Source of the DNA: an uncultured Myxococcales bacterium
GTDB taxonomy: Bacteria > Myxococcota_A > UBA9042
Assembly (NCBI GenBank): GCA_903842345.1
Contig: CAIMLR010000042.1
Coordinates: 92,857-156,856, forward strand
Reading direction: 5' to 3'
DNA length: 64,000 nucleotides
Position 1 is the first letter of the stretch. Each line of letters opens with the position of its first letter. A program made the translations under genes and the position numbers. The notes below the pieces were generated by a model that was not told the DNA's origin, did not search any database, and saw only the letters and a program-made list of their open reading frames with translations. Positions 19,359-57,605 of this stretch are shown here, one piece after another.

Positions 19359-19488
19359 CTCGTGCCGCTCCCATTCATCCGTGCGCCGCGTCTGACCGCA
19401 AAGTCCAACGCGCGACCTACCCCGTCCAAAACTACCACATCCCGCGCTGGCCGCGAATTGTTCGCCACAACCGGGGCGCAGCGCGCGA

Positions 19489-22400
19489 TCAGTTGATCTG
19501 CGCGTCGATCGCGGTGTAGCCGCCAGCCCGCACCATGTCTTTCAGCGTCAGCTGCATCTTCAGTCCGGTGCCCAAGCCCGGAATCAGGCTGCCGAGGTCA
19601 ATCGCCGGCAGCGGCACAACGATGTTGTCCAGTCCCGGAATGCCCTTGGCCAGCTGCGCGTCGATCTGCGTCTTGAGGATGTCCTCAAACGCGCCCTTCG
19701 CGTCCGCGAAGTCCTTGGTGATGTCGATAATCTCCATCATCAGGTTGAGCTTGGTGGCGTCGATCTTCACCGACAGCTCCTGCGCACCCGTCGTCGCGTT
19801 CTTGGCCATCGCGAGGTGCGCGGGCATGTCGGCATTCAGGAAGATGCCGATCGACAGCGGCTGGTCGCCGAGCTTCAGGTTCGCCTTCAGGTACACGTCG
19901 CCCGCCTGCACGCGCAGGTCCATGGGCGTCGGCTGCGCGCACGACTCGACGATCGGCGCGAGGAACAGGTCGACGTCAAACGTCGCGCCATCCAGCGAGA
20001 AGCCGCCGATCGAAGGCGCGCCCGCACCCGCCAAGCCGAGGCTCGCCGCGGTCAGCCCGTCCATCTTGAACGCGCCGCCGTACCAAATCGCCTGCAGCGC
20101 CTGGTTGATGATGTCGTCGTGCAGCGCGAGCTGCATGCGCTGCTTGTCGTCGATCACGAACTCGTCCTTGGCCTGACCCGGGCAGCCGACCTGCCGACCA
20201 ATCGAGCCGAGGTTGACGTGCGCCATCCCCTTGGGCGCCGACAGCTCCGCATCCAGCTTCACGAGGATGCCTTGCGGCGAAAACGTCAGCGTCGTCAGCC
20301 AACTGTTCAGTGTCAGCGTCACCGCGGGCATGCCCGGGATCAGCGCCGGCAGCGGCACGGCCTGGTTGATGGCGAACGTGTTGAGAATACCCAGCAGCAG
20401 CGGCGGAATCTGGTCGTTGAGCAGCTGCGTGATGGTGCCCTCCAGCGTGTTGATGTAGCTGCCGATGATCGCATTGGTGATGAAGTCGAAGAGGCCAAGC
20501 AGGCCGTTCAGGTGCAGCTTGAAGTTCTTGAGGTCGACCTTGGTGGAGATGACCTTGACCGTCGGGCCACCCGCAGGCGTCACGGCGACACCGAGCTGCG
20601 TCGCGATCTCGATCTGGCTCATCGTGATGTTGCCGGAGACCTTGATGGTGACGCTGATGGGACCGATCGACTGCTTGGCCTTGACCGCGATGTCGGCGTA
20701 GAAGTCATTGATCCAGATGTGCATTTTCATGCCGCCGTCGACCGGCTCCAGGGAAATTGTCGGCTTCTTGATCGAGAGGTTGGTGATCTTCACCTCGATC
20801 GCGCCTTGATTCAGGTTCGGCGGCAACAGCGCGTTCAGGTCCATGCCAGCCAGCGCCATCTCAATGATTGTCGCGAGATCATTGGGATTGTTGTAGTCGT
20901 GGACGCCGTCGTCGATGAAGTCCTTGCCGAGGAAGACCTGGATGCCGTCCTTGACGGGCGCGTCCTTGGGATGCGCGCCATCGGTCGGGTAGTACTGACC
21001 GGAGTAGTAGTAGCCGCGCGTCGCCTTGGACACCTGGCCGCCCAGGTCGGTCACCTCCACCTTCGCGGTATTCAGGCCGTGCTTGGCCGGCACTTGCGAC
21101 GCCCAGTTGGTCAGGCCCGTGTCCGGATCCGCGGAGCCCAGCACCGGCTTCTTCTTGGCCGCGTCGTCCCAGTTCGGCGTCAGCACCAGGTTGGCCAGAC
21201 CTGACGTGCCATCCGCCGCCGTTCCCGTCACTTGCACGGACGGCTTGCCGGTAATCGTGTCGCCCCAGTTCGGATAGTCGATCGTCAGCAGCGGCGGCGT
21301 GCCGTCCACGATGATCTGCACGTCCTTGGCGATGTCCGGCGCCTGATCGACCTGCAAATGCACGTTGTACTTGCCGTCGACGTTGAACTGCACCGTCTTG
21401 GGATCCTTGACTTTGTAGCCCTTGGCCGGATCCGTCACGGCCAGCGTCACGGTCGCGGATGGAATGATGTTGTCGTACGCATCCTTGACGACGCTGAGGA
21501 ACTGCACTTTTTCGGCATCCGCGTAGACGACCTTGGCCGGCACGGTCTGCACCTGCAGCAGCGCGGGCGGCCCCGGATCGACGAGCAGCGACGCCGGATG
21601 CAGCTGGTAGGCGTTCCAGTCGCCCGTTTCCGGCACGCAGGCGACCTTGTGGGCGCCGGCTTTCGTCGACGTGACGTAGAGGCCCGTGAGCTTGATGTCT
21701 TTGTCGCCGGAGAAGTCGATGGAGAACGGAAAATCCGGGATCGGATTGCCAAAAGCATCGTTGGCGACGCACGTCACCGAGCTCGCCGCGCCGGCTTCCA
21801 GCTCCGGCGGATCGAGAATCGCAAACAGGTGCACCGGCACGTCCGCATGGACATGCAGCGGCGCGGGCGTCTGATCGGCGAGGCCATCGACGATGCACGC
21901 GATCTGGTAGTCGCCAGCCTTCTTGAGCTGCGTCGTGAACGCCTTGGGCTGCGGCGCGTCGACGGGCGACACTTTCACGGAGAAGCCGTCAAGGACCTCA
22001 TTGCCGTACTTGTCCGCAGCCGTGCACGTCACCGCAACCGGCGTATTGGCGACGACGTCCGTGGGCGCGGGCGTCCCGGGCGCGCTGCCCGCGGGCGGCT
22101 GCAACTGCGTGTCGAGCGTCACCGCGAGGCCAGCGAGGACGTCCAAATCGGCAGGCGTCGGATCGACAAGCTTGTACGCCGGCAGTTGGCAAGCCACCTG
22201 ATACAGGCCGACCTTGGCCAGCGTCACGTGCACATCCTGCACGGCGACCGGCTGCCCGGGGCCGCCAGTAATCGTCACCGTCGCGGCTGACGGGAGCGGC
22301 ACTTCGGCGCCATAGCCCTGGTTCGCGTCGTCCGCGACAACCGGCTTGAACGTGCGGCACTTCACGGCAAAAGGGATCCCCGCGCGGGCGTCGCCGATGA

Positions 22401-25660: not shown

Positions 25661-26349
25661 CACGGCGCCAGATCGCTGTTGAGCGCCGGCAGCGTGACGC
25701 CAAACGTGCCCTCGACGTCGACCGTGTTCAGCGCGGACTTGCACGCGGCTGCGACGGCGGTGGCGTCCTTGCAATCGTCATTGGCGCCGAGGAATTGCTG
25801 CAAGTGGCCGGCGAAACGGCCCGTGACGAGCCCGCCCGGCGTCGCGCTCCACTGCTTGACGTTGATGTCGCCGGCCAAGCCGGGACACGTCGAACGGTAG
25901 CGGATGTTGCCGTAGGAGAAGTCGAGGTAGGGCGGCGTGCAGCTGAACGGATAGTCGGCGGCTTTGGGTACGAACGGCGGGAAGCCCGGCGCGTTGACGA
26001 GGTTGCCGAGCACGAAGTTGAGGTCGAGCGGGTCCTTGAACGCGCCCAGCTGCCACGTGTCGTGGATCGCCAGCGAAACGGCCGGCGGCTGCATGTGCGT
26101 GTCGCCAAAAACGACCGTGCTCGAGGTGCCGGTCAGGTCGCGCTGCACGGTGAACGTGCGACCGTCGAACTTCTGGCCGTGGAACGTGAACTTGATGCAG
26201 TAGCCCTGCTTCCAGTTCTCGCCGCAGTCGACGCCCGCGCTGGTGTCGTTCGCGACGGCGGCATCCTCCACAGCCGCCGTTTCCGCCGGGGCGGCTGTGC
26301 TGCCGCAGGCCGCGACGCAGAAGCCCAGGATCAGGATGAAAGCGCGCAT
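25660..26349 (-). CDS. Secreted lipoprotein, hypothetical
   Basis: Lipobox 'VAACGS' after ATG at 26349. The upstream extension in the ORF track is rejected. Confidence 0.5.
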
Positions 26350-26491
26350 TCTGGCTCTCCAACGGTGCGGCGCGAACCAGCCGCAGCGACGATCTTGGTC
26401 GCATGCCGACCCACACGCAAGCACGCCGGCTCGCTTGTGCCAATGGCCGGAAGACTGCAAACTGCTGAAGTTTGTCGCCGAGGCGCCCCAG

Positions 26492-29400
26492 ATGTCCCAC
26501 CCGTTCCGCATCCTTGTGCCCCTGCTGCTGCTGATTTCCAGCGCTTGCGGCGAAATTCAGATCGTGCCGCTGGACACCGCGCCAGAGGACGCGCTGGCGG
26601 ATACGGGCGATGCGGTGGCGCTCCCGCTGTCCGTGACAATCGAGTCGCCGCACAACGGCGCTTCGGTCAACGTCGGCGAGACGATTCATTTCTCCGCGCT
26701 GGTGACCGGCGGGACGGTGGCCTATGACCTGCTGACCGCGACGTGGACGACTGCGGACAAGAAGGTGTTGGCTACTGGGCCACTGGACGCCGCGGGGCGC
26801 TCCGCGTTTGACAAGGCGGACCTGCCCGCCGGGCCGCAGTCGCTCCATGTGGAAGTGACCGACGGCAACGGCGCGCATGCCGGCCGCGACCTTGGGCTGC
26901 TGATCAACACGCCGCCGACCGCGCCGTCGGTGAGCATCAAGCCGGAGAAGCCGACGACGCTGGACGACCTCGTGCCGGTGCTGATCAAGCCGCCGACGGA
27001 CATCGACCGCGCGCCGGACAAGCTGCACGTGCGTTTTGACTGGCACAAGGCGGGCGAAACGACGGTGCATCCCGGCGGCGCGAACGGCGAACTGATGGCG
27101 GGGACGCACAAGCGCGGCGAGACGTGGATTGTGACCGCAGTCGCCAATGACGGCACGGGCGACAGTCCCGGCGCGACGGCGCAGGTGGTGATTGGCGATG
27201 CGCCGCCCAACGTGCCGGTGCTGAAGATCACGCCGGCGAATGCGGATTTGCTGAGCGACGTGACGTGCGAGCTGGTGACGCCCGCCAGCGACGTCGACGG
27301 CGATGCGGTCACGGTGGCGTGGGGCTGGCGCGTCGGCGCGTACGTGAACCCGGGCGTGACGACGCAGACCGTCAACATCGACAAGCTGGCGTCGGACGCC
27401 AAGGGCACGTCGCTGCTGGCGGGCGCGCAGGTCTACTGCACCGCGCTCGCGTCCGACGACCAGGTGAGCGCGCCGCTGGCGACGAGTCCCACGCTGACGG
27501 TGCAGGCTTTTGACGTCTGCAAGTCCAAGCTCGACCCGTGCGACAAGAAGGCCACGTGCGTCAACTCCAGCACGCTCGAGCCGACGTGCACGTGCAACAG
27601 CGGCTTCACCGGCGACGGCTATTTCTGCCTGGACATCGACGAATGCGCGTCCGGCTACTGCAGCGTCAACGCCACCTGCAACAACACGATCGGCGGCTTT
27701 CAGTGCACCTGCAAGGACGGCTACACCGGCAACGGCGTGACCTGTACCGACGTCGACGAGTGCCAAGCCACGCCCGCACCGTGCGGCGTCAACGGCGCAT
27801 GCACAAACAAGGACGGCAGCTACCTCTGCACCTGCCAACCCGGCTATTCCGGCGACGGGGTGACGTGCAAGGACGTCGACGAGTGCCAAATCGTCCCGGA
27901 AGTGTGCGACGCCAACGCGGCGTGCAAGAACAGCATCGGCAGCCACACCTGCACGTGCGACAAGGGCTTCCTCGGCGACGGCAGCTTCTGCGTGGACATC
28001 GACGAATGCCTGGACGGCACCACCGGGTGCTCGCCGGACTCAAACTGCACCAACAAGCCGGGCGGCTTCTACTGCCAGTGCAAACCCGGCTACAAGGGCG
28101 ACGGCAAGATCTGCGTGCAACAGGACGAATGCCAGAACGGCGACGCGATCTGCTCCCCCGACGCGCTGTGCACCGACACGCCGGGCAGCTACACGTGCAC
28201 GTGCAAGACCGGCTTCACCGGCGACGGCAAGGACTGCACGGACATCGACGAGTGCGCCACGGGCGCGTTGACCTGCGGTGCGCATGCGGCGTGCAAGAAC
28301 ACGGTCCCGGGTGCGCAGTGCGTGTGCCAGACGGGCTATTTCATGGACGCGACCGGCGCGTGCGTGAACATCAACGAGTGCGCTGCCGCCGTGTACCCGT
28401 GCGACGTCAACGCGTCGTGCGCCGACACGGACGGCAGTTACACCTGCACGTGCAATGGCCCGATCTACTCGGGCTCGGGCAAGTACTGCAGCCAGAACGA
28501 CCTGTGCAAAACGACGACGTGCGCCAACAACGCCACGTGCGCGATGGTCGGCGCCGACCCCATCTGCACGTGCGATTCCGGCTACAGCGGCTTTGGCAAC
28601 ATCGGCTGCACGGAGGTCGACGAGTGCGCGCTGGGGATCGCGACCTGCTCAGGCAGCGCGACGTGCACCAACACGCCGGGCAGCTACACCTGCGCGTGCA
28701 ACCCAGGATTCACGGGGGACGGATTCACGTGCGTGGACGTCAACGAGTGCGCCACGACGGCGAGCCCGTGCGCAGTCGACGCCACCTGCAAGAACACGCC
28801 GGGCAGCTTCACGTGCAACTGCAAGCCGGGCTATTCGGGCTATGGCACCGCGTGCACGGACATCGACGAATGCGCCGCCACCGTCCCGCCATGCAGCGCC
28901 AGCGCGACGTGCAGCAACACACTGGGCAGCTTCCAGTGCACCTGCGACGCCGGCTTCGCGGGCGACGGCGTGACGTGCACGGACATCAACGAGTGCGTCC
29001 TGGGCACCGCGGGATGCGCCCCCGACGCGACGTGCAGCAACACGCCGGGCGGCTTCCAGTGCGCCTGCAACGCCGGGTTCACCGGCGACGGCAAGACCTG
29101 CGCGGACATCAACGAATGCACAAACGGCGTCGCCAACTGCAGCCCCAACGCCGCGTGCAACAACACGCCCGGCAGCTTCAACTGCGCCTGCAAATCCGGC
29201 TTCAGCGGCGACGGCAAGACGTGCACGGACATTGACGAGTGCCCGGCCATCGACTGGTCGTGGGACTTCAACAGCATTGGCGTCAGCGGCTGGACGCTGG
29301 ACCCGCCGAACCTGTACGCGCCGAGCAATCCGCAGTCATCGGGCGTGCCGCCCAGCGTCGCCTGGCAGCTGTGGAACGGCGTGCTCTACTACGGCAATCC

Positions 29401-30466
29401 GGCGGTGGGCAATTACGCAACGGCGGTCGGCGGCGACACGTGGGCCAACAAGGGCAACGCGACGGGACCGAGCGTGACACTGTCCTCGCACCCGTGGCAT
29501 CACCTCGGCTTTGACGTGCTCATCAACACCGACGTCGGGACGTACTACGACAAGTTCCTCGTGCAGTTGGTCATCGGCTCGGGCACGAGCGAGCAGGTCG
29601 TGACGGTGTGGGACAAAGCCTCGCAGACCGCGGCGATGGGCGTCAACAAGCACTACACGGTGTACTTGAACGGCTACGGCGGCAAATCCGTGCGCGTCCG
29701 CTTCGCCTTTGACACGGTGGACGGCGGCAACAACGCGACGCAGGGCGTGGAGGTCAGCAATCTCTCGATTCGCGGCGCCGGCACACCGTGCAACCCCTAC
29801 GCGGAATGCGCCAACACGCCCGGGAGCTTCACGTGCACGTGCAACGCGCCGTACGCGGGCGATGGCGTGCAGGCGTGCAACGTCCTGGGCTCGCAGAGCC
29901 AGCCCGCGGCCAACTGCAAGGCGATCTTCGACCTGGACGGCACGCTCGCCGACGGGTTCTACTGGCTGAAATGGACCGCCGCGCCCGCCACCCAGATGTG
30001 GTGCGACAGCGCCGGCTGGACGCGCGTCGTGCAGAACGACTTCAACGCGAGCGCGGGCACCTGGTCGCCCAAGACGCTGACGACGTGCGGCAGCAGCGGC
30101 CTCCTGGGCGGCGTCGGCGTGGCCGGCAAGAACTACGCGATGAGCGACTCGATCGGCAGCCTGCCCAGCCACAGCCAGATGCGTGTCCAGGGCACCGTGC
30201 AGTGCATCGACGCGTGGCTCGGCGAGGCCGTGATGCTGCAGGTCGACGGCCTGCAGGTCTGGACGGACAAAGTGGTCAACCCGATGGCGACGGGCAGCAC
30301 GCCCGACTCCTGCGGCAACACGACGCTCGCCGACTTGAAGCGCTACCCCAAGGCAACGTTTGACCATGCGTCGGCCAACGCCCTCATCCAGTTCAGTTCG
30401 ACCCTGAACAGCGACGCCGCGACCGCGTCGTACGGCATCGACGACATCAACGTCTGGGTCAAATGA
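26492..30466 (+). CDS. Giant secreted multidomain protein (1,325 aa) with four parts: Ig-like N-terminal region; about 15 tandem EGF domains, mostly calcium-binding type; a beta-rich region; and a fibrinogen-related-domain-like C-terminus.
   Basis: Signal peptide '[14 protein letters not shown]'. There are 13 or more repeats of 'D(I/V)(D/N)EC…C.N..G(S/G)(F/Y).C.C..G(F/Y).GDG..C', for example '[38 protein letters not shown]'. The C-terminal '[21 protein letters not shown]…[14 protein letters not shown]' matches the fibrinogen C-domain A-subdomain pattern. Confidence 0.85.
27508..29245 (+). repeat. Intragenic tandem array of about 15 EGF-module coding repeats (roughly 115-125 bp each)
   Basis: The protein-level repeat 'D(I/V)DEC…C.N..G.F.C.C..G…GDG..C' recurs with a period of about 40 aa. 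Confidence 0.85.
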
Positions 30467-48239: not shown

Positions 48240-51200
48240 ATGCACTGCCCTAAGTCCAGCTTGGCCACGCCTGCGCGGTTTCGCCGCCGTCGGCTGTTTG
48301 GATACCTGCTCGGCGCGCTTGGCCTGCTGGGCAGTTGCGACGACACGCCGATTGGCACCGATGGCATCGCCACCGACGCGATCTCGGACGTGCCAGCCAA
48401 CATCGGCGACGTTGCGTTCCTCGACAGCGGCCCCGTGGACACCGGCCCGGACGCGTGGGGCTGCACGCCGGGCAGTTGCGCGACCGGCTACAGCTGCGTC
48501 GCGCCGGGCGGCGACGTCACGCCAACCTGCCTCCCCGATGGCGCATTTGCCTGCGCGAGCTGCACCAGCGACGCCGTTTGCCTCGGCGGCAGCTGCACCG
48601 CGGTCGGCGCCGAGGGCAATTTCTGCCTCATTCCGTGCGTCGCCACCGGCAACGGCTCCAGCTGTCCCGCCGGGATGAACTGCGCCCCGCGCGGGGAAGG
48701 CCGCGTCTGCGTTCCTGCCAACGGCTCGTGCACCTGCCGCCCCGGCAACGACGGCGCGATCGCCTTGTGCAGCGACCTGACCGCCACCACGGGCGCGAGC
48801 TGCGTCGGCCAACGCACCTGCCACAGCGCCAGCGGCTGGACCGCCTGCGACGCCGTCGCGCCTGCGCCTGAGACCTGCAACGGCTTTGACGACAACTGCA
48901 ACGGCGCCACGGACGAGAACCTGAGCGGCGCCCCGTGCGGCGTTGGCCACTGCAAGGGCCAGATCCAGTGCAAGGGCGGCCAATCGGCGTGCGACGGCGC
49001 GGGCGCGATCACAGAGACCTGCAACGGTCAGGACGACGACTGCGACGGCGTGACGGACAACGGCTTTGTCCAAAACGGCCTGTACGTCAGCGACGGCAAC
49101 TGCGGGGCGTGCGGCAACAGCTGCGCGGGGGACATCGCCAACGGCACCGTGAGCTGCCAGGTCATCGGCGGCAAGGCGATCTGCGCGGCCGCGACGTGCG
49201 ACCCGGGCTTCTGGCGCGCCTCGCCCAAGAACTGCGCGCCGACGGCCGTGTTCTCGTGTGGCACATGCCTGACATCAGACGATTGCGGCGGCGACCCGTG
49301 CGCCGGCGGCTTCTGCCATCCGATCTGCACGCCGAGCGCGCCGTGCTTGCCCGGCTACGACTGCGTCGCGGGCGTCAACGGCGACGCGAGCACGTGCTCG
49401 CCCAAGAGCGGCAGTTGCTCATGCACACCCGCCAACGGCGGCGGCGTCCAGTCGTGCGGCCACAGCAACAGCTTTGGCACGTGCCTGGGCCAGCAAATGT
49501 GCAACCCGGCAAGCGGCTGGAGCCCATGCTCCGCGCCGACGCCGATGGCGGAAAAGTGCAACGGCGAGGACGACGACTGCGACGGCGCGACCGACGAGGA
49601 GGTCGGCGCAGGGGACGCGTGCGACGTCACCAACAAGAACGGCACGTGCCCGGGCCTCTGGGCATGCAACGGCGCGGCGGGCTTGTTCTGCGCCGGAAGC
49701 GCGCCCAAACCGGACAGCTGCAACGGCCTGGACGACGACTGCAACGGCTTGACCGACGACGCGTGGCTCAACCCAGCGACGCTGCAATACGACAAGATGG
49801 ACGCTTGCGGCGCGTGCGGCGTGATCTGCCCACCCGCGCCGTTGAGCGCGGAAGTGACGTGCGCGGGCAGCCCGGCGCCAGCGTGCCAGACGAGCTGCAC
49901 CCCGGGCTGGGTCGACATGGACGGCACCTTGGACGATGGCTGCGAGTGCTACTTCCAGTCCAAGACCGACTTGCCGGACGGGGTCGACCAGAACTGCGAC
50001 GGCGTCGACGGCGACGCGCTGGACGCGATCTTTGTCGCCAAGATTGGCTCGGACGCCAACCCCGGCACGCGGCTCTTTCCGGTCGCGAGCATTCCCCACG
50101 CGCTCGCGCTGGCGGCAGCTGGCAACAAACGGGACGTCTACGTGGCGGGCGGCGTGTACGACGGCTCCGTGGACATGGTCGCCGGCATTTCCATCTACGG
50201 CGGCTACAAGCCAGACTTCGCCGCGCGCGATCCGGTCAGCTACCAGAGCGCGATCGTCGGCAGTGTCCCGGCGAGCGGCCCCACCGCGGCGGTGCGCTGC
50301 GACGCCATCCAAGGCATCGACCAGATGCCATCGCGGCTCGACGGATTCACGCTCATCGGCGCGGACGCCAAGGCGCTCGGCAGCAGTTCCTACGGCGTCT
50401 GGTCCAACGCCTGCGACGGCCGTTTTCAAGTGACCTACTGCCAGATCCAGGCCGGCGACGGCGCGGCGGGGATTCCCGGCGGCGCCGGCCAAAACGGCGT
50501 ACCGGGGGTCAGCGGCCTGGGCGGCGCAACCGCGCATGACGTCGGCCATGAAGGCTGCGGCGTCAACGACTTCGCCCCGGGCGGCAGCGGCGGCAAAGCA
50601 GCGCCGTGCGACGGCGTCGACGTCAGCGGCGGCGCGGGCGGGACGGCAGTGTGCCCGGCGTACGACGAGGACAACCCCGCGCCGCAGTGCCCCATTGCGC
50701 CGTATGTGCAGACCAAGCTGCCGCAGGAGCCGGGCGTGGCGGGCCTCGGGAAAGCGGGCGGCGCGGGTGGCGCATCGGGGGCGGATAGCTACATCGACTC
50801 CAACAAGGGCGTCGCGACAACCTGCAGCAATGGCAAAGCGGGCTGCAACCTCTGCTACGTGCCGGTCCTGCCGCGCGACGGCGTGGACGGCCAGGACGGC
50901 CAAATGGGCACCAGCGGCCCAGCCGGCGTGGGCGGCGGGATGGCCGCGGGCAGCGTCGCCAACGGCGCGTGGCAGCCCAGTGCGGGCGGCACCGGCGGTG
51001 GCGGACAACCGGGCAGCGGCGGCGGCGGCGGCGGCGCAGCGGGCGGCGTGGAAGTTCACGATTGCGGCGGGACCTCCGCGCAATACACGGACGTCGGCGG
51101 CAGCGGCGGCGGCGGCGGCTCCGGCGGCTGTGGCGGCTCCGGCGGCTTGGGCGGCGGCGGCGGCGGCGGCTCGTTCGCGGTCTTCGTCGTCGCGACGGCG

Positions 51201-51602
51201 GCCGGCGACATTCCGCTGATCCTCGGCAACCAACTGTACTCCGGCGGCGGCGGCGCAGGGGCATCAGGCGGACCGGCTGGCTCAGGCGGCCCCGGCGGCC
51301 AAGGCGGAAAGGGCGGGGCCAGCGGCGAAGGCGCCCAGGCGACGTTCTGCACTTCCCAAGGCGGCAACGGGGGCGCGGGCGGCAACGCTGGCCACGGCGG
51401 TGGCGGCGGCGGCGGCAGTGGCGGACCGTCCGCGCTCCTGGCGCTGAGCAACGTGCCCGGCAAGTTGGCAACGACGCTGCAGCAGCAAAACCAGTTGAAG
51501 GCAGTCGGCGGCGGCGGACCCGGCGGACCCGGTGGGCCGTCGATTGGCGCGATGGGCCAGAGCGGCGCCCCCGGTCTCGCCGCCAAAGTCCTGCTCTGGT
51601 GA
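48240..51602 (+). CDS. Giant secreted lipoprotein. It has MopE-like Cys repeats, a right-handed beta-helix-like region and a C-terminal poly-Gly tail.
   Basis: Lipobox 'LGLLGSC'. Repeats include 'TCNGFDDNCNGATDE', 'TCNGQDDDCDGVTDNGF', 'KCNGEDDDCDGATDEE' and 'SCNGLDDDCNGLTDDAW'. A beta-helix-like stretch sits at roughly aa 590-800. The tail is glycine-rich ('GSGGGGGGAAGG…GGSGGGGGSGGCGGSGGLGGGGGGGS…'). Confidence 0.8.
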   Translation: MHCPKSSLATPARFRRRRLFGYLLGALGLLGSCDDTPIGTDGIATDAISDVPANIGDVAFLDSGPVDTGPDAWGCTPGSCATGYSCVAPGGDVTPTCLPDGAFACASCTSDAVCLGGSCTAVGAEGNFCLIPCVATGNGSSCPAGMNCAPRGEGRVCVPANGSCTCRPGNDGAIALCSDLTATTGASCVGQRTCHSASGWTACDAVAPAPETCNGFDDNCNGATDENLSGAPCGVGHCKGQIQCKGGQSACDGAGAITETCNGQDDDCDGVTDNGFVQNGLYVSDGNCGACGNSCAGDIANGTVSCQVIGGKAICAAATCDPGFWRASPKNCAPTAVFSCGTCLTSDDCGGDPCAGGFCHPICTPSAPCLPGYDCVAGVNGDASTCSPKSGSCSCTPANGGGVQSCGHSNSFGTCLGQQMCNPASGWSPCSAPTPMAEKCNGEDDDCDGATDEEVGAGDACDVTNKNGTCPGLWACNGAAGLFCAGSAPKPDSCNGLDDDCNGLTDDAWLNPATLQYDKMDACGACGVICPPAPLSAEVTCAGSPAPACQTSCTPGWVDMDGTLDDGCECYFQSKTDLPDGVDQNCDGVDGDALDAIFVAKIGSDANPGTRLFPVASIPHALALAAAGNKRDVYVAGGVYDGSVDMVAGISIYGGYKPDFAARDPVSYQSAIVGSVPASGPTAAVRCDAIQGIDQMPSRLDGFTLIGADAKALGSSSYGVWSNACDGRFQVTYCQIQAGDGAAGIPGGAGQNGVPGVSGLGGATAHDVGHEGCGVNDFAPGGSGGKAAPCDGVDVSGGAGGTAVCPAYDEDNPAPQCPIAPYVQTKLPQEPGVAGLGKAGGAGGASGADSYIDSNKGVATTCSNGKAGCNLCYVPVLPRDGVDGQDGQMGTSGPAGVGGGMAAGSVANGAWQPSAGGTGGGGQPGSGGGGGGAAGGVEVHDCGGTSAQYTDVGGSGGGGGSGGCGGSGGLGGGGGGGSFAVFVVATAAGDIPLILGNQLYSGGGGAGASGGPAGSGGPGGQGGKGGASGEGAQATFCTSQGGNGGAGGNAGHGGGGGGGSGGPSALLALSNVPGKLATTLQQQNQLKAVGGGGPGGPGGPSIGAMGQSGAPGLAAKVLLW
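50990..51140 (+). repeat. GGC-rich microsatellite-like tract encoding poly-Gly
   Basis: Runs of 'ggcggcggcggcggc' on the coding strand of the 48240..51602 gene. Confidence 0.8.
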
Positions 51603-54534: not shown

Positions 54535-56127
54535 CTACTTGCGCGGCAACCGCTGGCGCTCCTGGCCTTTTTGCACGGCCAGCAGCGCCGGCGCGTGATC
54601 CTGCAGGTACGCGAGGTAATCCTCCGCCGTCAGCAACGGCGCGACGCGCTCCGCCTCCACTTCCGCCTCCAGCCAGCGCTGAACTTCACCAAGCCATGGC
54701 CCAGGATGCAGGCCCGTCGCCTGCATGATCACGTGCCCCAAGCCCTTGGGCAGCGGCGGCACCTTGGCGTCCTCCGCGGCGATCAGGCGGATCCGCTTGA
54801 GCAACTCCTCCGCCAGGCTGCGCACTTCCGCGATGCGCCACTGCCGCTTGGTCGTGAAGTCGCTGCTGGAAAACGCGAGCACGTCCTCCAGATGTGGCCC
54901 CATGTCGCGGATCAGCCGCCGCACCGCGGAGTCGGTCCAGTCCGCCGCGTATACGTTGGCCCGGGCGTGGTTGCCGATCACGTAGACAACGCGATCGCGC
55001 AGCGCCTGATCGAGGTGGAAACGCCCGGCGACGCCTTCCATCAGGCTCGCGCCCAGCTCTTCATGGCGAAAGAAGTGCACCTTGCCCTGCTTGTTGACGG
55101 AACGCGTCCAGACCTTGCCGGAATCGTGCATCAGCGCCGCCCAGCGCACCGCCAGCGATTGCGGGCATTTCTCCACAACCTGCAGCGTGTGGTCCCAGAT
55201 GTCCTTGTGGTGGACGTTGCAGGACTTGTGGAAGTCGACCATGAGGCAAACTTCCGGCACCATGCGCTGCAATGCTTCGCAATCAAACAGGAATTGCAGG
55301 CCTTCGCCGGCGTGTTCGCCCAGCAGCACTTCCCCGAACCGCTCCGCCCAGACCGCGCGCTCGACGGAAAGCACGTTGCCAGCGTCGCGACGCGCCAACC
55401 GCAGCAGTTCGTTGTCCGGCAGCAGACCCGACCGCGCCGTCAGCACTGCCAGATCCAGCACGCGTTCAGGACCTTGCGCCAACCAGGCGCGCGGATCGCC
55501 GGGAATGCGCAGGCGACGATCGCGGGCATCCCCCGCATTGTTCCACGGATCGATCGTGCGGCCGCGGGCATCAAGCGCCACCGCCCACGCGCGAATCGGC
55601 TCGGCCGCCAGCAGCGCCGCAACGGCTTCCTCGCTCTCGTTTGGCAACGGCTGCACCGCGATCGGCAGATCGCCCGGCAATTCGGCGATCGCGGCGATCG
55701 GCCCCGCCACGGCAAACCGCCAGGGGGTGAAACGCGGCAGCGGCCGATCGCCCAGAAGCGCACATGCGGCGGGACCGAGGAGCCACGCTTGACTGCCCGC
55801 CGCGGTGAGCGTCTGAAAAACGCGCTGCAACTGCGCGAGTTGCTTTGGCTCCTGATTTCCGATGACGGCTTCTTGCGGCACGATGTCCTGACTTTGCCGC
55901 AACATCCAGCGTCGGCGCAACGCGGTGTAGCGAGCGCGTGCCTCAGGGTCAAGCGATACCGCAAAGTAGCCTGCGTTGTTGACAATGACGGACCCGAATG
56001 TTAGTAATTGAATGGGGATCCGTGATCCACATGCAATGCCCCCCTTGCGCGTGGACAAGTTGGAGACCGTGGGTAGCTGTCCGGGCCAATGGCGCGGTAA
56101 CAGACGCCCGGTGCTGGCAGGCTGCAA
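54535..56127 (-). CDS. CCA-adding-enzyme-like protein. The HD phosphohydrolase domain is intact but the nucleotidyltransferase head has degenerate catalytic motifs.
   Basis: The head-domain motif 'TIDPWNNAGDARDRRLRIP' matches E. coli Cca 'IIDPFNGIGDLENRLLRHV'. The HD domain is intact ('HHKD…HDSGK…HFFRHEELG'). The 'GGAVRD…DxD' region reads 'GPAACALLGDRPLPRFTPW' instead. The true start is uncertain. Confidence 0.75.
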   Translation of the reverse strand: MQPASTGRLLPRHWPGQLPTVSNLSTRKGGIACGSRIPIQLLTFGSVIVNNAGYFAVSLDPEARARYTALRRRWMLRQSQDIVPQEAVIGNQEPKQLAQLQRVFQTLTAAGSQAWLLGPAACALLGDRPLPRFTPWRFAVAGPIAAIAELPGDLPIAVQPLPNESEEAVAALLAAEPIRAWAVALDARGRTIDPWNNAGDARDRRLRIPGDPRAWLAQGPERVLDLAVLTARSGLLPDNELLRLARRDAGNVLSVERAVWAERFGEVLLGEHAGEGLQFLFDCEALQRMVPEVCLMVDFHKSCNVHHKDIWDHTLQVVEKCPQSLAVRWAALMHDSGKVWTRSVNKQGKVHFFRHEELGASLMEGVAGRFHLDQALRDRVVYVIGNHARANVYAADWTDSAVRRLIRDMGPHLEDVLAFSSSDFTTKRQWRIAEVRSLAEELLKRIRLIAAEDAKVPPLPKGLGHVIMQATGLHPGPWLGEVQRWLEAEVEAERVAPLLTAEDYLAYLQDHAPALLAVQKGQERQRLPRK

Positions 56128-56217
56128 AGTCCGCTGGGAACCGCCGGACGCTGGATTAGGCTTGCATCGCGGTCGTGACTTGGAGAAACTGCCCTGCAGG
56201 GGTCATGCCCGGGTCCA

Positions 56218-56238
56218 CAGGATCCGGACAGGATCCTG
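56218..56238 (+). other. Perfect 8-bp stem hairpin (caggatcc-ggaca-ggatcctg) in the 360-bp leader upstream of the HGS-repeat gene
   Basis: The inverted repeat was read directly from the sequence. Confidence 0.4.
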
Positions 56239-56486
56239 ACGACGGCCTCCGGGTCGTCAATGTGGGGGTCAGCAACGATCCCAGCCAAGGGTCTGAGCAT
56301 GTCCGACGAGCGTCGGAACCTCAGACCGCCCGAGTCCTCGGCGAAAGCTGGCGATGGAGGCAGATAACGCTGAGTGTTGACGTCGGTAACCCTACTGACG
56401 ACAGCCCGCCAGCGAGGTATCAATCGGGCACCGGCGCTTGCACGCGCAACTGACGAATGCGCAAAGGCGTAATGAGAGGGGAGACG

Positions 56487-56795
56487 ATGAAGAAGACGCT
56501 TCCGAAATTGAAAAAGAATGCTGCGGATTTCCTGTCCTCGGAAGAGGGCGCGATCAGCGAGAAGCAGGAGGAGCGCGTCTCGACCTTCCTGACCCTGTCG
56601 GGCGGCGATAGCATGCTCCCGGGCGACGTGAACCTGTCGGCTGAACACTGTTCGCACGGCTCGCACGGCAGCCACGGCTCGCACGGCTCGCACGGCAGCC
56701 ACGGCTCGCACGGTTCGCACGGCAGCCATGGTTCGCACGGCTCGCACGGCAGCCACGGCTCGCACGGCTCGCACGGTTCGCACGGCTCCTGGTAA
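56487..56795 (+). CDS. Small His-Gly-Ser tandem-repeat peptide (102 aa): a leader-like N-terminal segment followed by (SHG)x~15
   Basis: The RBS 'gagggga' sits 5 nt upstream of the ATG. Sequence 'MKKTLPKLKKNAADFLSSEEGAISEKQEERVSTFLTLSGGDSMLPGDVNLSAEHC' is followed by 'SHGSHG…SHGSW' and a stop. There is no signal peptide. Confidence 0.6.
   Translation: MKKTLPKLKKNAADFLSSEEGAISEKQEERVSTFLTLSGGDSMLPGDVNLSAEHCSHGSHGSHGSHGSHGSHGSHGSHGSHGSHGSHGSHGSHGSHGSHGSW
56650..56792 (+). repeat. Tandem 9-bp repeat (about 16 units of cac-ggc-wsn) encoding the His-Gly-Ser repeat
   Basis: The units 'cacggctcg', 'cacggcagc' and 'cacggttcg' alternate. All variation is synonymous. Confidence 0.9.
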
Positions 56796-57026
56796 GTTGG
56801 CAGTCCAGCGCGTCAGGTCGATCAGCGGCCCGTCGCGCGGACTCTCTCCCAGACCAAGCCGACCGCGCCACGCCCGTTCGGGAACATTGACCGTCAGCGG
56901 TTTTTGACCGCGGGCGTCGACAATCTGCGACAATCAAGCGCCGCTTTCGCGCTTTGTGCCGCGATCCGTCAAAACTGCGCATCGATTCGTCAGCCGCGTG
57001 CGCGGGCCATGCCCTCCCAACTTCAG

Positions 57027-57605
57027 CTACTGCTGGCCCTCGCCGACCAGCCCTGCCGCAACGCGCAGGCGATGCAGCAGCCTTTGGTGCGCGCGCTGCA
57101 ACTGGTCCACCGACCAACGCCCCTGCTCCGCCACCTCGCGCAGCGCCCGGTCCTGGCCGTAGACCGCCTGCAGGACGATCTTCTCACAGCTTGGCAAGTC
57201 ACTCGCCACGCGTTCGACGGTGCGCCACGCGTCCAGCCGCTCGGAAACCGACGGCCCCATCGGGTCCTCCGGCTGCTCGGTCGCCCGCTCACGCGCCCGC
57301 AGGTAGCGCGCCTCCGCCCGCACCGCATCCAGCGCCCGACCGCGCATGCGCGCGTACGCGAAGGTCGTCAGGCGCGTGCCGCGTTGGGCGTCAAACCGCC
57401 GCTGGCTCTCCAGCAGGCCGAGCGTCGCCTCGCTCGCGAGGTCCAGGCGCTGCGCTGCGTGGCGGTTCTGCCGCACGCCAACCGCTGCGGCAACGCGCCA
57501 GCCAGCGGGTTCAGTCTGCGGAATCTGTGGGCGGACGACGGCGAACTGCATGGCAACCTCCGGAGGCAAAGACGCCGCGGCGTGCGGCACCAGAAGACCA
57601 AGCAA
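57027..57605 (-). CDS. Sigma-70-family sigma factor (ECF/FliA-like size, regions 2 and 4)
   Basis: Region 2.2-like 'LGLLESQRRFDAQRGTRLTTFAYARMRGRALD' and region 4.2-like helix-turn-helix 'ALREVAEQGRWSVDQLQRAHQRLLHRLR'. Confidence 0.7.
   Translation of the reverse strand: MLGLLVPHAAASLPPEVAMQFAVVRPQIPQTEPAGWRVAAAVGVRQNRHAAQRLDLASEATLGLLESQRRFDAQRGTRLTTFAYARMRGRALDAVRAEARYLRARERATEQPEDPMGPSVSERLDAWRTVERVASDLPSCEKIVLQAVYGQDRALREVAEQGRWSVDQLQRAHQRLLHRLRVAAGLVGEGQQ

What the first reader, a model, noticed from the sequence alone, without database searches (positions are those of the whole stretch)
56487..57605. Leader plus (Ser-His-Gly)x~15 repeat peptide gene, convergent with a sigma-70/ECF-type sigma factor: a candidate RiPP-like or metal-binding peptide locus
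The 102-aa product has a hydrophilic, leader-like 55-aa N-terminus ending in '…LSAEHC'. This is followed by about 15 uninterrupted His-Gly-Ser triplets and then a terminal Trp. The gene has a good RBS and no signal peptide. This is the His-Xaa-Ser repeat architecture known from HxsA precursors, which are matured by paired radical-SAM enzymes HxsB/HxsC. No radical-SAM gene lies within 5 kb here. The product may therefore be an orphan precursor matured by enzymes encoded elsewhere, or an unmodified His-rich metal (Ni/Zn/Cu) buffering peptide like Hpn. The convergent sigma factor 230 bp downstream could be its regulator.
Basis: partly seen in the sequence, partly recalled or inferred. Interest (0 to 1): 0.7.

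Follow-up and report, generated by a model that had tools for sequence, protein, structure and literature searches.

The report
Orphan His-Gly-Ser repeat peptide gene (HxsA4)
This is a real, strongly conserved 102-residue gene of the already catalogued HxsA4 family of His-Xaa-Ser repeat peptides. What is unusual is that this freshwater Myxococcales lineage encodes it without the radical-SAM maturation enzymes that normally sit next to it.

Summary
Window 56487-56795 (+) encodes a 102-aa peptide: a 55-aa leader, exactly 15 Ser-His-Gly triplets, then Ser-Trp.

It scores 92.1 bits (cutoff 55) against NCBIfam NF038313, 'His-Xaa-Ser repeat protein HxsA4'. It does not match HxsA proper (TIGR03979).

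Nine orthologues from uncultured Myxococcales contigs (eight of them species-representative MAGs) keep AEHC-(SHG)15-SW with no amino-acid change. Yet 64 of 156 core nucleotide columns vary. The + frame is therefore the coding frame, and the antisense 'RASRGC' frame is not.

Elsewhere (Omnitrophota, Saccharibacteria and other high-GC contigs), HxsA4 peptides sit beside HxsB, HxsD, an HxsD-like protein and further radical-SAM genes. The closest leader relative does too (58% identity over 38 leader residues).

Here no such gene lies in the 64-kb window, nor within about 5-10 kb (as far as each contig reaches) in the orthologous loci. This clade has also lost the family's hydrophobic segment.

Most likely this is a precursor matured in trans by an Hxs system encoded elsewhere. 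An unmodified His-rich, metal-binding peptide is the main rival. I could not scan the whole genomes, so this stays open. Synteny with the sigma factor is conserved, but nothing shows regulation.

Verdict: a variant of a known, experimentally uncharacterised family; moderate interest.

The parts
56487..56795 (+). HxsA4-family peptide gene, 102 aa plus stop: MKKTLPKLKKNAADFLSSEEGAISEKQEERVSTFLTLSGGDSMLPGDVNLSAEHC(SHG)15SW
   Evidence: NF038313 HxsA4 at 92.1 bits against a cutoff of 55, model positions 2-93 of 93. The identical protein is called on 14 public contigs. Nine orthologous loci exist.
56474..56483 (+). Purine-rich Shine-Dalgarno-like sequence GAGAGGGGAG
   Evidence: Read directly. It is invariant in all seven clade-A upstream regions aligned.
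56499..56570 (+). Leader recognition-type motif, residues 5-28: LPKLKKNAADFLSSEEGAISEKQE
   Evidence: It aligns to the family consensus LPxIKKxIxxFLxSEEGKIxxK. It is 58% identical over 38 aa to the leader of an HxsB-adjacent peptide, L054. Between the two Myxococcales clades, 8-10 synonymous codon changes accompany only 5-7 amino-acid changes over residues 1-29.
56574..56639 (+). Linker, residues 30-51: RVSTFLTLSGGDSMLPGDVNLS. This looks like a degenerate remnant of the family's hydrophobic segment.
   Evidence: Hydropathy maximum is 0.71, against 1.4-2.8 in 117 of 120 homologues. STFLTLSG aligns with STFLLMAG of L054. The linker has diverged strongly between clades A and B.
56640..56792 (+). 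Core peptide AEHC-(SHG)15-SW. The repeat array itself is 56652-56786.
   Evidence: TRF array at 56652-56788. There are 15 repeats. No amino-acid change occurs in 10 orthologues despite 64 variable nucleotide columns, including TCG<->AGC serine codon switches.
56412..56486 (+). About 75-nt upstream block, nearly invariant in six of the seven clade-A sequences (L017 keeps only its 3' half). It probably holds the promoter and 5'UTR.
   Evidence: Alignment of the upstream regions. No Rfam family and no sigma-70 consensus was found there. The function is inferred, not shown.
57027..57551 (-). Convergent ECF-type sigma-70 family sigma factor, 174 aa from the ATG. An alternative TTG start at 57605 gives 192 aa. 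It is a positional neighbour; functional linkage is unproven.
   Evidence: TIGR02937 at 50.4 bits against 42.9, and PF04542. Public gene call of 174 aa. It keeps its position in clade A (70-92% identity) and clade B (38-41% identity).
54535..55905 (-). Divergently transcribed HD-domain, CCA-adding-enzyme-like protein (456 aa). A conserved positional neighbour only.
   Evidence: PF01966 HD; TIGR02692 at 139 bits, below its cutoff of 438. Synteny is kept in clades A and B.

Best explanation
The gene encodes a genuine member of the HxsA4 family of His-Xaa-Ser repeat precursor peptides.

Shown:
- It is a conserved protein-coding gene on the + strand.
- It has the family's three-part build: an N-terminal leader motif (LPxLxKxxxDFLSSEEGxIS), a variable linker, and a core C-(S-H-G)15-S-W.
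- In other organisms, peptides with the same leader motif and the same kind of core lie immediately next to HxsB (radical SAM/SPASM), HxsD, an HxsD-like protein and further radical-SAM enzymes.
- In this Myxococcales lineage the gene sits alone in a housekeeping neighbourhood.

Inferred mechanism:
- The leader motif is still under purifying selection because it is the docking element for an HxsB/HxsD-type maturase encoded elsewhere in the roughly 10-Mb-class genome.
- That system modifies the His/Ser repeats by radical-SAM chemistry and removes the leader, giving a His-rich modified peptide.
- The hydrophobic segment has been lost, so the precursor and its product are probably soluble rather than membrane-anchored.
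- The fixed length of 15 repeats points to a structural or stoichiometric constraint on the product, for example a defined number of cross-links or ligand sites.
For: - Family membership: NF038313 at 92.1 bits against 55, full length. A search found 319 homologues, and NCBI names several of them HxsA4. The leader motif is aligned.
- Real gene: exact-sequence gene calls on 14 contigs. No amino-acid change in the core across 10 orthologues while 64 of 156 nucleotide columns vary. GC3 is 0.83.
- Canonical context elsewhere: HxsD, HxsD-like, HxsB, then the peptide and several radical-SAM genes in L009, L010, L014, L015, L026 and L027, with radical-SAM genes also flanking L028 and L029. HxsB scores 498-531 bits against TIGR03978 (cutoff 370), HxsD matches TIGR03976, and the HxsD-like protein matches NF038315.
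- High-GC Hxs clusters carry xHC-(SHG)n-QW cores in or next to the cluster, directly after HxsB in L030 and L039.
- The nearest leader relative is L054: 58% identity over 38 repeat-free residues, E=6e-15, core GHC-(SHG)16-SW. It lies between HxsB and another radical-SAM gene.
- HxsB of this subtype is common in Myxococcota: named hits come from Sandaracinaceae, Polyangiaceae and Myxococcota bacterium.
- Conservation is bipartite, with leader and core conserved and the linker free. That pattern is typical of leader-guided precursors (general RiPP knowledge).
Against: - No HxsB, HxsC, HxsD or any radical-SAM gene lies in the 64-kb window. None lies within about 5-10 kb in the nine orthologous loci.
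- I could not show that any genome of this clade encodes HxsB at all. Three HxsB look-ups returned contigs from other assemblies.
- Other high-GC loci (L065, L072 and L087 with 10 kb on each side; L066, L074 and L079 with upstream flank only) also carry orphans in a different housekeeping context. All three that are complete at the 3' end have 15 repeats. This may mean orphans have a life of their own.
- Cluster-associated cores vary in repeat number: 8 against 16 for the same HxsB protein in L032 and L031. The orphans are fixed at 15, so the selective regime may differ.
- No modification of any HxsA4 peptide has been demonstrated experimentally. No paper in the searchable library mentions HxsA4.
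Confidence: 0.5

Rival explanations
1. A stand-alone, unmodified His-rich peptide. An HxsA4 precursor was domesticated, and the soluble 102-aa protein acts without radical-SAM maturation. The 15 His, the flanking Cys and the Trp would bind or buffer Ni, Zn, Cu or Co, much as Hpn or the His-rich tails of metallochaperones do. Alternatively it acts as a pH- or metal-responsive disordered protein.
For: - It is a consistent orphan in ten loci of two Myxococcales clades and in another, non-syntenic group of high-GC loci, always in housekeeping synteny.
- This clade has lost the hydrophobic segment.
- Repeat number is fixed at 15 in the orphans but variable in cluster-linked peptides.
- His content is 16 of 102 residues, about one third of the core.
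Against: - The leader motif inherited from the maturase-linked family is still under purifying selection. A pure metal buffer would not need it.
- No metal transporter, metallochaperone or metal-sensing riboswitch lies next to it.
- A weak CobW/ZigA-like hit in a neighbour of the L065 lineage is below threshold. That protein resembles cyclic 2,3-diphosphoglycerate synthetase instead.
Confidence: 0.3
2. The peptide and the convergent ECF-type sigma factor form a functional pair, with the sigma factor controlling the peptide or the peptide modulating the sigma factor.
For: The arrangement HD protein, peptide, sigma factor, L,D-transpeptidase, Ser/Thr kinase is kept in both clades, even where the sigma factor is only 38-41% identical.
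Against: - The genes are convergent, so they share no promoter.
- The genomes compared are relatives, so synteny alone is weak evidence.
- Orphans in other lineages (L065, L072, L087) have no sigma factor neighbour.
- No shared promoter motif was recognised.
Confidence: 0.1
3. (Gly-Ser-His)15 is a short collagen-like Gly-X-Y segment that forms a triple helix.
For: Pfam Collagen PF01391 at 34.6 bits against 27.2. Collagen chains and a collagen-like fibril chain appear among the PDB sequence hits.
Against: - The hits come from Gly periodicity only. The per-domain i-E-value is 0.1 for the top PDB hit, which aligns GAPGSQ to GSHGSH.
- Across the family the middle residue of H-x-S is often A, S, N or T, so Gly at every third position is not conserved.
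- There is no Pro and no trimerisation domain, and only 15 triplets.
Confidence: 0.03
4. It is not a gene. It is a chance ORF over a DNA tandem repeat, or the antisense ORF is the real one.
For: Long antisense ORFs overlap it (56001-56933 and 56554-57117 on the minus strand). The DNA is a 9/27-bp tandem repeat.
Against: - The sense frame shows 0 amino-acid changes. The other five frames show up to 28 per pair, and 8 or more in all but one frame of the closest pair, with 64 variable nucleotide columns.
- Long antisense ORFs are expected by chance at 66.6% GC.
- It scores above cutoff against a curated family model, including the non-repetitive leader.
Confidence: 0.02

Closest known systems
HxsA4, His-Xaa-Ser repeat protein (NCBIfam NF038313), with its usual partners HxsB (TIGR03978), HxsD (TIGR03976), HxsD-like (NF038315) and HxsC4 (NF038332)
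   Same: - Above-cutoff, full-length HMM match.
- Same leader motif (KKxIxxFLSSEEGxIS).
- Tandem H-x-S repeats.
- Cys just before the repeats and an aromatic C-terminus (GSW, GQW or GGWC).
   Different: - No HxsB, HxsC4 or HxsD within 64 kb here, nor within about 5-10 kb in nine orthologous loci.
- The hydrophobic segment present in 117 of 120 listed homologues is lost.
- The repeat is perfectly regular, with x always Gly, and fixed at 15 copies.
HXS antiphage system of Enterobacteria and Pseudomonadota: HxsA (TIGR03979) with HxsB, HxsC and HxsD. Li et al., Nat Commun 2026, PMC13128918.
   Same: His-Xaa-Ser repeats. In the wider HxsA4 family the same maturase families, HxsB and HxsD, sit beside the peptide. 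Maturation of HxsA by HxsB/HxsC includes N-terminal processing and a +8 Da modification (PMC13128918 abstract).
   Different: [quoted passage not shown]
- HxsA lies in a fixed HxsD-B-C-A operon, and 99.7% of systems are in Pseudomonadota.
- The window peptide does not match TIGR03979 at E<=1, has no such domain and no operon.
- A defence role for HxsA4 peptides is untested. PADLOC has no matching model.
Cluster-linked high-GC (Myxococcota-type) HxsA4 peptides, for example L054/L058 (GHC-(SHG)16-SW), L030 (QHC-(SHG)8-QW) and L031 (THC-(SHG)16-QW)
   Same: The same C-(SHG)n-[SQ]W core. L054 has 58% leader identity over 38 residues.
   Different: - Those peptides lie directly beside HxsB or within the same Hxs cluster.
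- L054 keeps a hydrophobic segment.
- Repeat number varies there, 8 against 16 for the same HxsB protein.
His-rich metal-binding proteins such as Helicobacter Hpn (comparison from general knowledge, not tested here)
   Same: Small, cytoplasmic and very His-rich, with no dedicated modifying enzymes nearby.
   Different: There is no sequence relationship. Hpn has His runs and Cys pairs rather than a strict three-residue repeat, and it has no RiPP-type leader motif.

Membership tests
HxsA4 (NF038313) | Score at or above the curated cutoff against the family HMM over its full length | tested here: met
   92.1 bits against a cutoff of 55; residues 5-102 align to model positions 2-93 of 93.
HxsA4 (NF038313) | Non-repetitive N-terminal leader motif (LP.IKK.I..FL.SEEG.I) | tested here: met
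   Alignments A2 and A3: F15 and E20 are invariant, and K10, L16, E19 and G21 are nearly so. A leader-only BLASTP against L054 gives 58% identity, E=6e-15.
HxsA4 (NF038313) | Tandem His-Xaa-Ser repeats ending in a short aromatic C-terminus | tested here: met
   15 x SHG followed by SW. Family C-termini are GQW, GSW, GGWC or SSY.
HxsA4 (NF038313) | Hydrophobic (membrane or signal-like) segment between leader and core, typical of the family | tested here: not met
   Maximum 15-residue hydropathy is 0.71, against 1.4-2.8 in 117 of 120 homologues. Only P0015, P0043 and the non-family collagen-like P0099 are similarly low.
HxsA4 system (with HxsB, HxsC4, HxsD and HxsD-like) | Gene lies next to HxsB, HxsD and further radical-SAM genes | tested here: not met
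   No tblastn hit in the window or in L017-L025. No PF04055 among the window ORFs scanned or annotated. The partners are present in L009, L010, L014, L015, L026, L027, L030 and L054.
HxsA4 system | HxsB, HxsC or HxsD present somewhere in the same genome (trans) | not testable with these tools
   Only about 5-10 kb of flank per locus could be read.
HxsA4 system | Peptide is post-translationally modified by the radical-SAM enzymes | not testable with these tools
   This needs mass spectrometry. No published data on HxsA4 exist in the searchable library.
HxsA of the HXS antiphage system (TIGR03979) | Match to TIGR03979, a peptidoglycan-binding domain, about five HxS repeats, and the HxsD-B-C-A operon | tested here: not met
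   TIGR03979 is absent from the hits at E<=1. Pfam finds only the compositional Collagen hit. There is no operon. The defining features are taken from PMC13128918.
Collagen triple-helix repeat (PF01391) | Gly-X-Y repeat that forms a triple helix, normally longer, Pro-rich or charge-stabilised, and with a trimerisation domain | tested here: inconclusive
   The score is 34.6 bits against 27.2. However, the alignment to collagen-like chains rests on Gly periodicity only. Gly is not conserved at that position across the family. There is no flanking domain.
ECF-type sigma-70 family (the neighbour at 57027-57551) | Regions 2 and 4 of sigma-70 | tested here: met
   TIGR02937 at 50.4 bits against 42.9, covering model positions 16-164 of 165. 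Pfam detects region 2 only.

The most novel reading that the evidence does not exclude
Several high-GC lineages have detached an HxS radical-SAM precursor from its maturases: this Myxococcales clade and another, non-syntenic group of high-GC loci. They keep it as a stand-alone protein whose core is held at exactly 15 Ser-His-Gly repeats. This would be a domesticated RiPP precursor acting unmodified, for example as a defined-stoichiometry metal- or proton-binding module. The old leader would have been re-used for a new partner.
Probability: 0.25. Interest if true: 0.6.

Novelty: new variant of a known kind. Interest (0 to 1): 0.4.

Why it matters
His-Xaa-Ser repeat proteins were bioinformatic curiosities until 2026. 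That year the HxsABCD system of enterobacteria was shown to block phage DNA entry (PMC13128918).

The much more widespread small-peptide branch, HxsA4, has no experimental data at all.

This locus shows a lineage in which the peptide is under unusually strict selection. The sequence is identical and the repeat number is 15 across genomes whose neighbouring genes are only 40-60% identical. Yet the peptide is physically separated from any maturase.

Two outcomes are possible, and both are useful:
- The maturases act in trans. The clade is then a clean test case for leader-guided recognition at a distance.
- The maturases are absent. The clade is then an example of a RiPP precursor re-used as an ordinary protein.

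Either way, the perfectly regular C-(SHG)15-SW core is a simple substrate for working out what HxsB/HxsC chemistry does to His-Xaa-Ser repeats.

Tried and rejected
1. Antisense or chance ORF. Rejected by frame-specific conservation.
2. HxsA proper (TIGR03979). No hit.
3. Radical-SAM or Hxs partner genes in the window. tblastn with 29-36 partner proteins and Pfam on 30 further large ORFs found none.
4. Riboswitch, known RNA, sigma-70 promoter or intrinsic terminator around the gene. Nothing was found. A sigma-54-like GGCAC..TTGCA string in the conserved upstream block has the wrong and variable spacing (read), so it was dropped.
5. Finding a trans-encoded HxsB in the same MAGs. An HxsB search and three contig look-ups returned Myxococcota-like Hxs clusters. 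All came from other assemblies and none from the MAG accession prefixes of this clade. This is inconclusive, not negative.
6. A leader-only protein search found one relative, P0121. It is a 53-aa leader-only remnant in a different context.
7. A conserved alternative maturase near the orphans of other lineages. The shared upstream genes are housekeeping: a TrxR-like protein, an HhH-GPD glycosylase, a P-loop protein weakly like cyclic-2,3-diphosphoglycerate synthetase, and a 190-aa unknown. None has a homologue in the window.
8. Collagen-like reading. The hits are compositional.
9. PADLOC defence models. No match for the peptide.
10. Literature search for the SHG repeat string and for HxsA4. Nothing was found.
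11. The first genome scan with the broad alignment A2 failed for lack of a conserved stretch. It was repeated with A3.
Full report
**1. Observation**

Window 56487-56795 (+) is an ATG-initiated ORF of 102 codons plus a stop. A purine-rich GAGAGGGGAG precedes it at 56474-56483. The product is MKKTLPKLKKNAADFLSSEEGAISEKQEERVSTFLTLSGGDSMLPGDVNLSAEHC, then exactly 15 Ser-His-Gly triplets, then Ser-Trp.

At the DNA level the array (56652-56788) has period 9 with a higher-order period of 27. There is no hydrophobic stretch: the maximum 15-residue hydropathy is 0.71.

An ECF-type sigma factor is encoded convergently, with its stop 231 bp downstream. It scores 50.4 bits against TIGR02937 (cutoff 42.9) and matches Pfam Sigma70_r2.

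**2. Is it a gene, and on which strand?**

The exact protein is called on 14 public contigs. A scan of one genome per species, plus one look-up, found nine orthologous loci. Their records are titled uncultured Myxococcales or Myxococcota MAGs, with one exception labelled Enterobacteriaceae that is syntenic with the rest. They form two clades:
- Clade A (L017-L022): neighbouring proteins are 70-99% identical to the window's.
- Clade B (L023-L025): the HD protein is 63% identical, the L,D-transpeptidase 60% and the sigma factor 38-41%.

All ten sequences, window included, encode AEHC-(SHG)15-SW without a single amino-acid change. Yet 64 of the 156 core nucleotide columns vary, including many TCG<->AGC serine switches. 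The other five reading frames show up to 28 amino-acid differences per pair. GC3 of the frame is 0.83, like real genes of this 66.6% GC genome.

The long antisense ORFs are therefore the usual high-GC artefacts.

**3. What family?**

The peptide matches NCBIfam NF038313, 'His-Xaa-Ser repeat protein HxsA4', at 92.1 bits (cutoff 55) across the whole model. It matches HxsA3 and HxsA2 only below their cutoffs, and TIGR03979 (HxsA) not at all.

A database search gave 319 homologues, and NCBI labels some of them HxsA4. The homology is not just low complexity:
- The family shares an N-terminal motif, roughly LPxIKKxIxxFLxSEEGKIxxK.
- A repeat-free comparison with one relative (L054) gives 58% identity over 38 residues, E=6e-15.

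Typical members then have a hydrophobic segment, often a Cys, the H-x-S repeats and a C-terminus such as GQW, GSW or GGWC.

**4. The normal context of the family**

In Omnitrophota and other low-GC contigs the order is HxsD, a 69-78-aa HxsD-like protein, a roughly 485-500-aa radical SAM/SPASM enzyme, often a Cys-rich secreted protein of about 250 aa, the peptide, and up to seven more radical-SAM genes.

The large enzyme is HxsB (TIGR03978, 498-531 bits against a cutoff of 370). The small proteins are HxsD (TIGR03976) and HxsD-like (NF038315). One further radical-SAM enzyme is weakly HxsC/HxsC4-like.

The same holds in high-GC contigs:
- L015 (GC 0.69) and L030 (GC 0.72) place TM-less peptides directly after HxsB, and L039 and L040 (GC 0.68-0.69) do the same. 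In L031 and L032 (GC 0.66) the peptide lies about 5.6 kb downstream of HxsB, just before another radical-SAM gene.
- Apart from L015, whose core mixes HAS and HGS units and ends in SW, their cores read xHC-(SHG)n-QW with n of 8 to 16.
- L054, L058 and L043 place the window's closest leader relative, with core GHC-(SHG)16-SW, next to HxsB; L054 also has HxsD and a downstream radical-SAM gene.

HxsB of this subtype is frequent in Myxococcota (source names).

**5. What differs here**

None of 29-36 Hxs partner proteins finds anything in the 64-kb window or in the flanks of the nine orthologous loci, which reach about 5-10 kb on each side. Pfam on 30 further large ORFs of the window shows housekeeping and envelope genes and no radical SAM. 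These include DnaK, polysaccharide export, SPFH, an amidase, PanB and PanC, and MopE- and EGF-repeat proteins. Together with the Pfam record for the genes around the peptide (TGT, peroxiredoxin and others), this covers most of the window.

The gene always sits between a divergent HD-domain, CCA-enzyme-like gene and the convergent sigma factor. An L,D-transpeptidase and a Ser/Thr kinase follow.

The segment that is hydrophobic in relatives (QISTFLLMAGTAAG in L054) has decayed to RVSTFLTLSGGDS here.

Orphans are not unique to this clade. L065, L072 and L087 (10 kb on each side) and L066, L074 and L079 (upstream flank only), all with GC 0.60-0.73, also lack Hxs genes. They lie in a different, mutually syntenic housekeeping context. 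All three that are complete at the 3' end have 15 repeats. One Bacteroidota-like locus (L012) has only the Cys-rich partner.

**6. Mechanism**

Conservation is bipartite. Residues 12-28 of the leader and the whole core are essentially fixed between clades A and B. The 22-residue linker between them is largely replaced. This is the signature of a leader-guided precursor.

The same leader motif and the same core type are found next to HxsB elsewhere. I therefore think the most likely reading is that the peptide is still a substrate of an Hxs maturase encoded elsewhere in the genome (confidence about 0.5).

The chemistry itself is not known for HxsA4. For E. coli HxsA, maturation that depends on HxsB and HxsC includes N-terminal processing and a +8 Da modification (PMC13128918).

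The main rival (about 0.3) is that the orphans act unmodified as His-rich, probably metal-binding, peptides. Three observations support it: the repeated, stable orphan arrangement; the fixed 15 repeats, against a variable number in cluster-linked genes (L031 against L032); and the loss of the hydrophobic segment.

I could not decide between the two. The tools gave access to only about 5-10 kb around each locus, and my three attempts to find an HxsB on a contig of the same MAGs hit other assemblies.

**7. The sigma factor**

Its position is conserved even at about 40% identity. However, the genes are convergent, and orphans in other lineages have no sigma neighbour. No shared promoter element, riboswitch or terminator was recognisable. 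There is no evidence for or against regulation.

**8. Comparison and novelty**

The peptide meets the sequence criteria of HxsA4. It fails the contextual criterion of co-location with HxsB, HxsC4 and HxsD, and it lacks the usual hydrophobic segment. It is not a member of HxsA or the four-gene HXS antiphage system.

The collagen hits are a Gly-periodicity artefact. No paper in the searchable library mentions HxsA4 or the SHG repeat.

I rate it a new variant of a known but experimentally uncharacterised kind. Interest is moderate (0.4). The family assignment is routine, since PGAP would name it. The deeply conserved, length-locked, maturase-less form is a useful and testable lead.

Noticed in passing
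L016:378-539 (protein P0121): A 53-aa ORF in a GC 0.69 contig keeps the leader (78% identical; MKKSLPKLNRTAADFLSSEEGAISEKQEARVSTFLTLSGGD...). It ends without any His repeat and sits between unrelated genes. It looks like a truncated remnant or relocated copy of the orphan gene.
   Followed up: partly
window 56159-56191 and 56382-56399: Two conserved non-coding blocks lie in the divergent intergenic region, conserved in most of clade A. One is AGGCTTGCATCGCGGTCGTGACTTGGAGAAACT. The other is a near-palindrome, GTCGGTAACCCTACTGAC. Their function is unknown: a promoter or operator for the peptide or for the HD gene. There is no Rfam match.
   Followed up: partly
L031:11261-11650 versus L032:10425-10742: Two assemblies with the identical HxsB protein carry the same precursor with 16 and 8 SHG repeats respectively. 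This is either real repeat-length polymorphism or assembly collapse. It contrasts with the fixed 15 repeats in the orphans.
   Followed up: no
L065:7813-9871, L072:7954-9894 and the equivalent regions of L074, L079 and L087: In the other orphan lineages the peptide follows, on the same strand, a conserved protein of about 450 aa and a 190-aa protein with no family. The 450-aa protein is weakly like cyclic 2,3-diphosphoglycerate synthetase and has sub-threshold CobW/ZigA hits. The window has no homologue of either.
   Followed up: partly
L009:7231-7971, L010:7213-7998, L012:7208-8026: A Cys-rich protein of 246-272 aa with an N-terminal hydrophobic, signal-like start and no Pfam or NCBIfam family lies immediately upstream of HxsA4 in several low-GC lineages. 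In L012 it is present even where no radical-SAM gene is nearby. It may be an unrecognised component of the system.
   Followed up: partly
window 26204-30466 (+): An open reading frame of about 1,420 aa with 13 EGF_3 and 11 calcium-binding EGF domains. This is an unusually eukaryote-like repeat protein for a bacterium.
   Followed up: no
window 16890-19541 (-) and 48240-51602 (+): Two large Cys-rich proteins with MopE-type putative metal-binding motifs. The second ends in a long Gly-rich tail. Similar MopE proteins flank Hxs clusters in L030 and the syntenic L017.
   Followed up: no
window 56001-56933 (-) and 56554-57117 (-): Long antisense ORFs (310 and 187 aa) run across the peptide gene. Their translations change freely between species, so they are high-GC artefacts.
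   Followed up: yes
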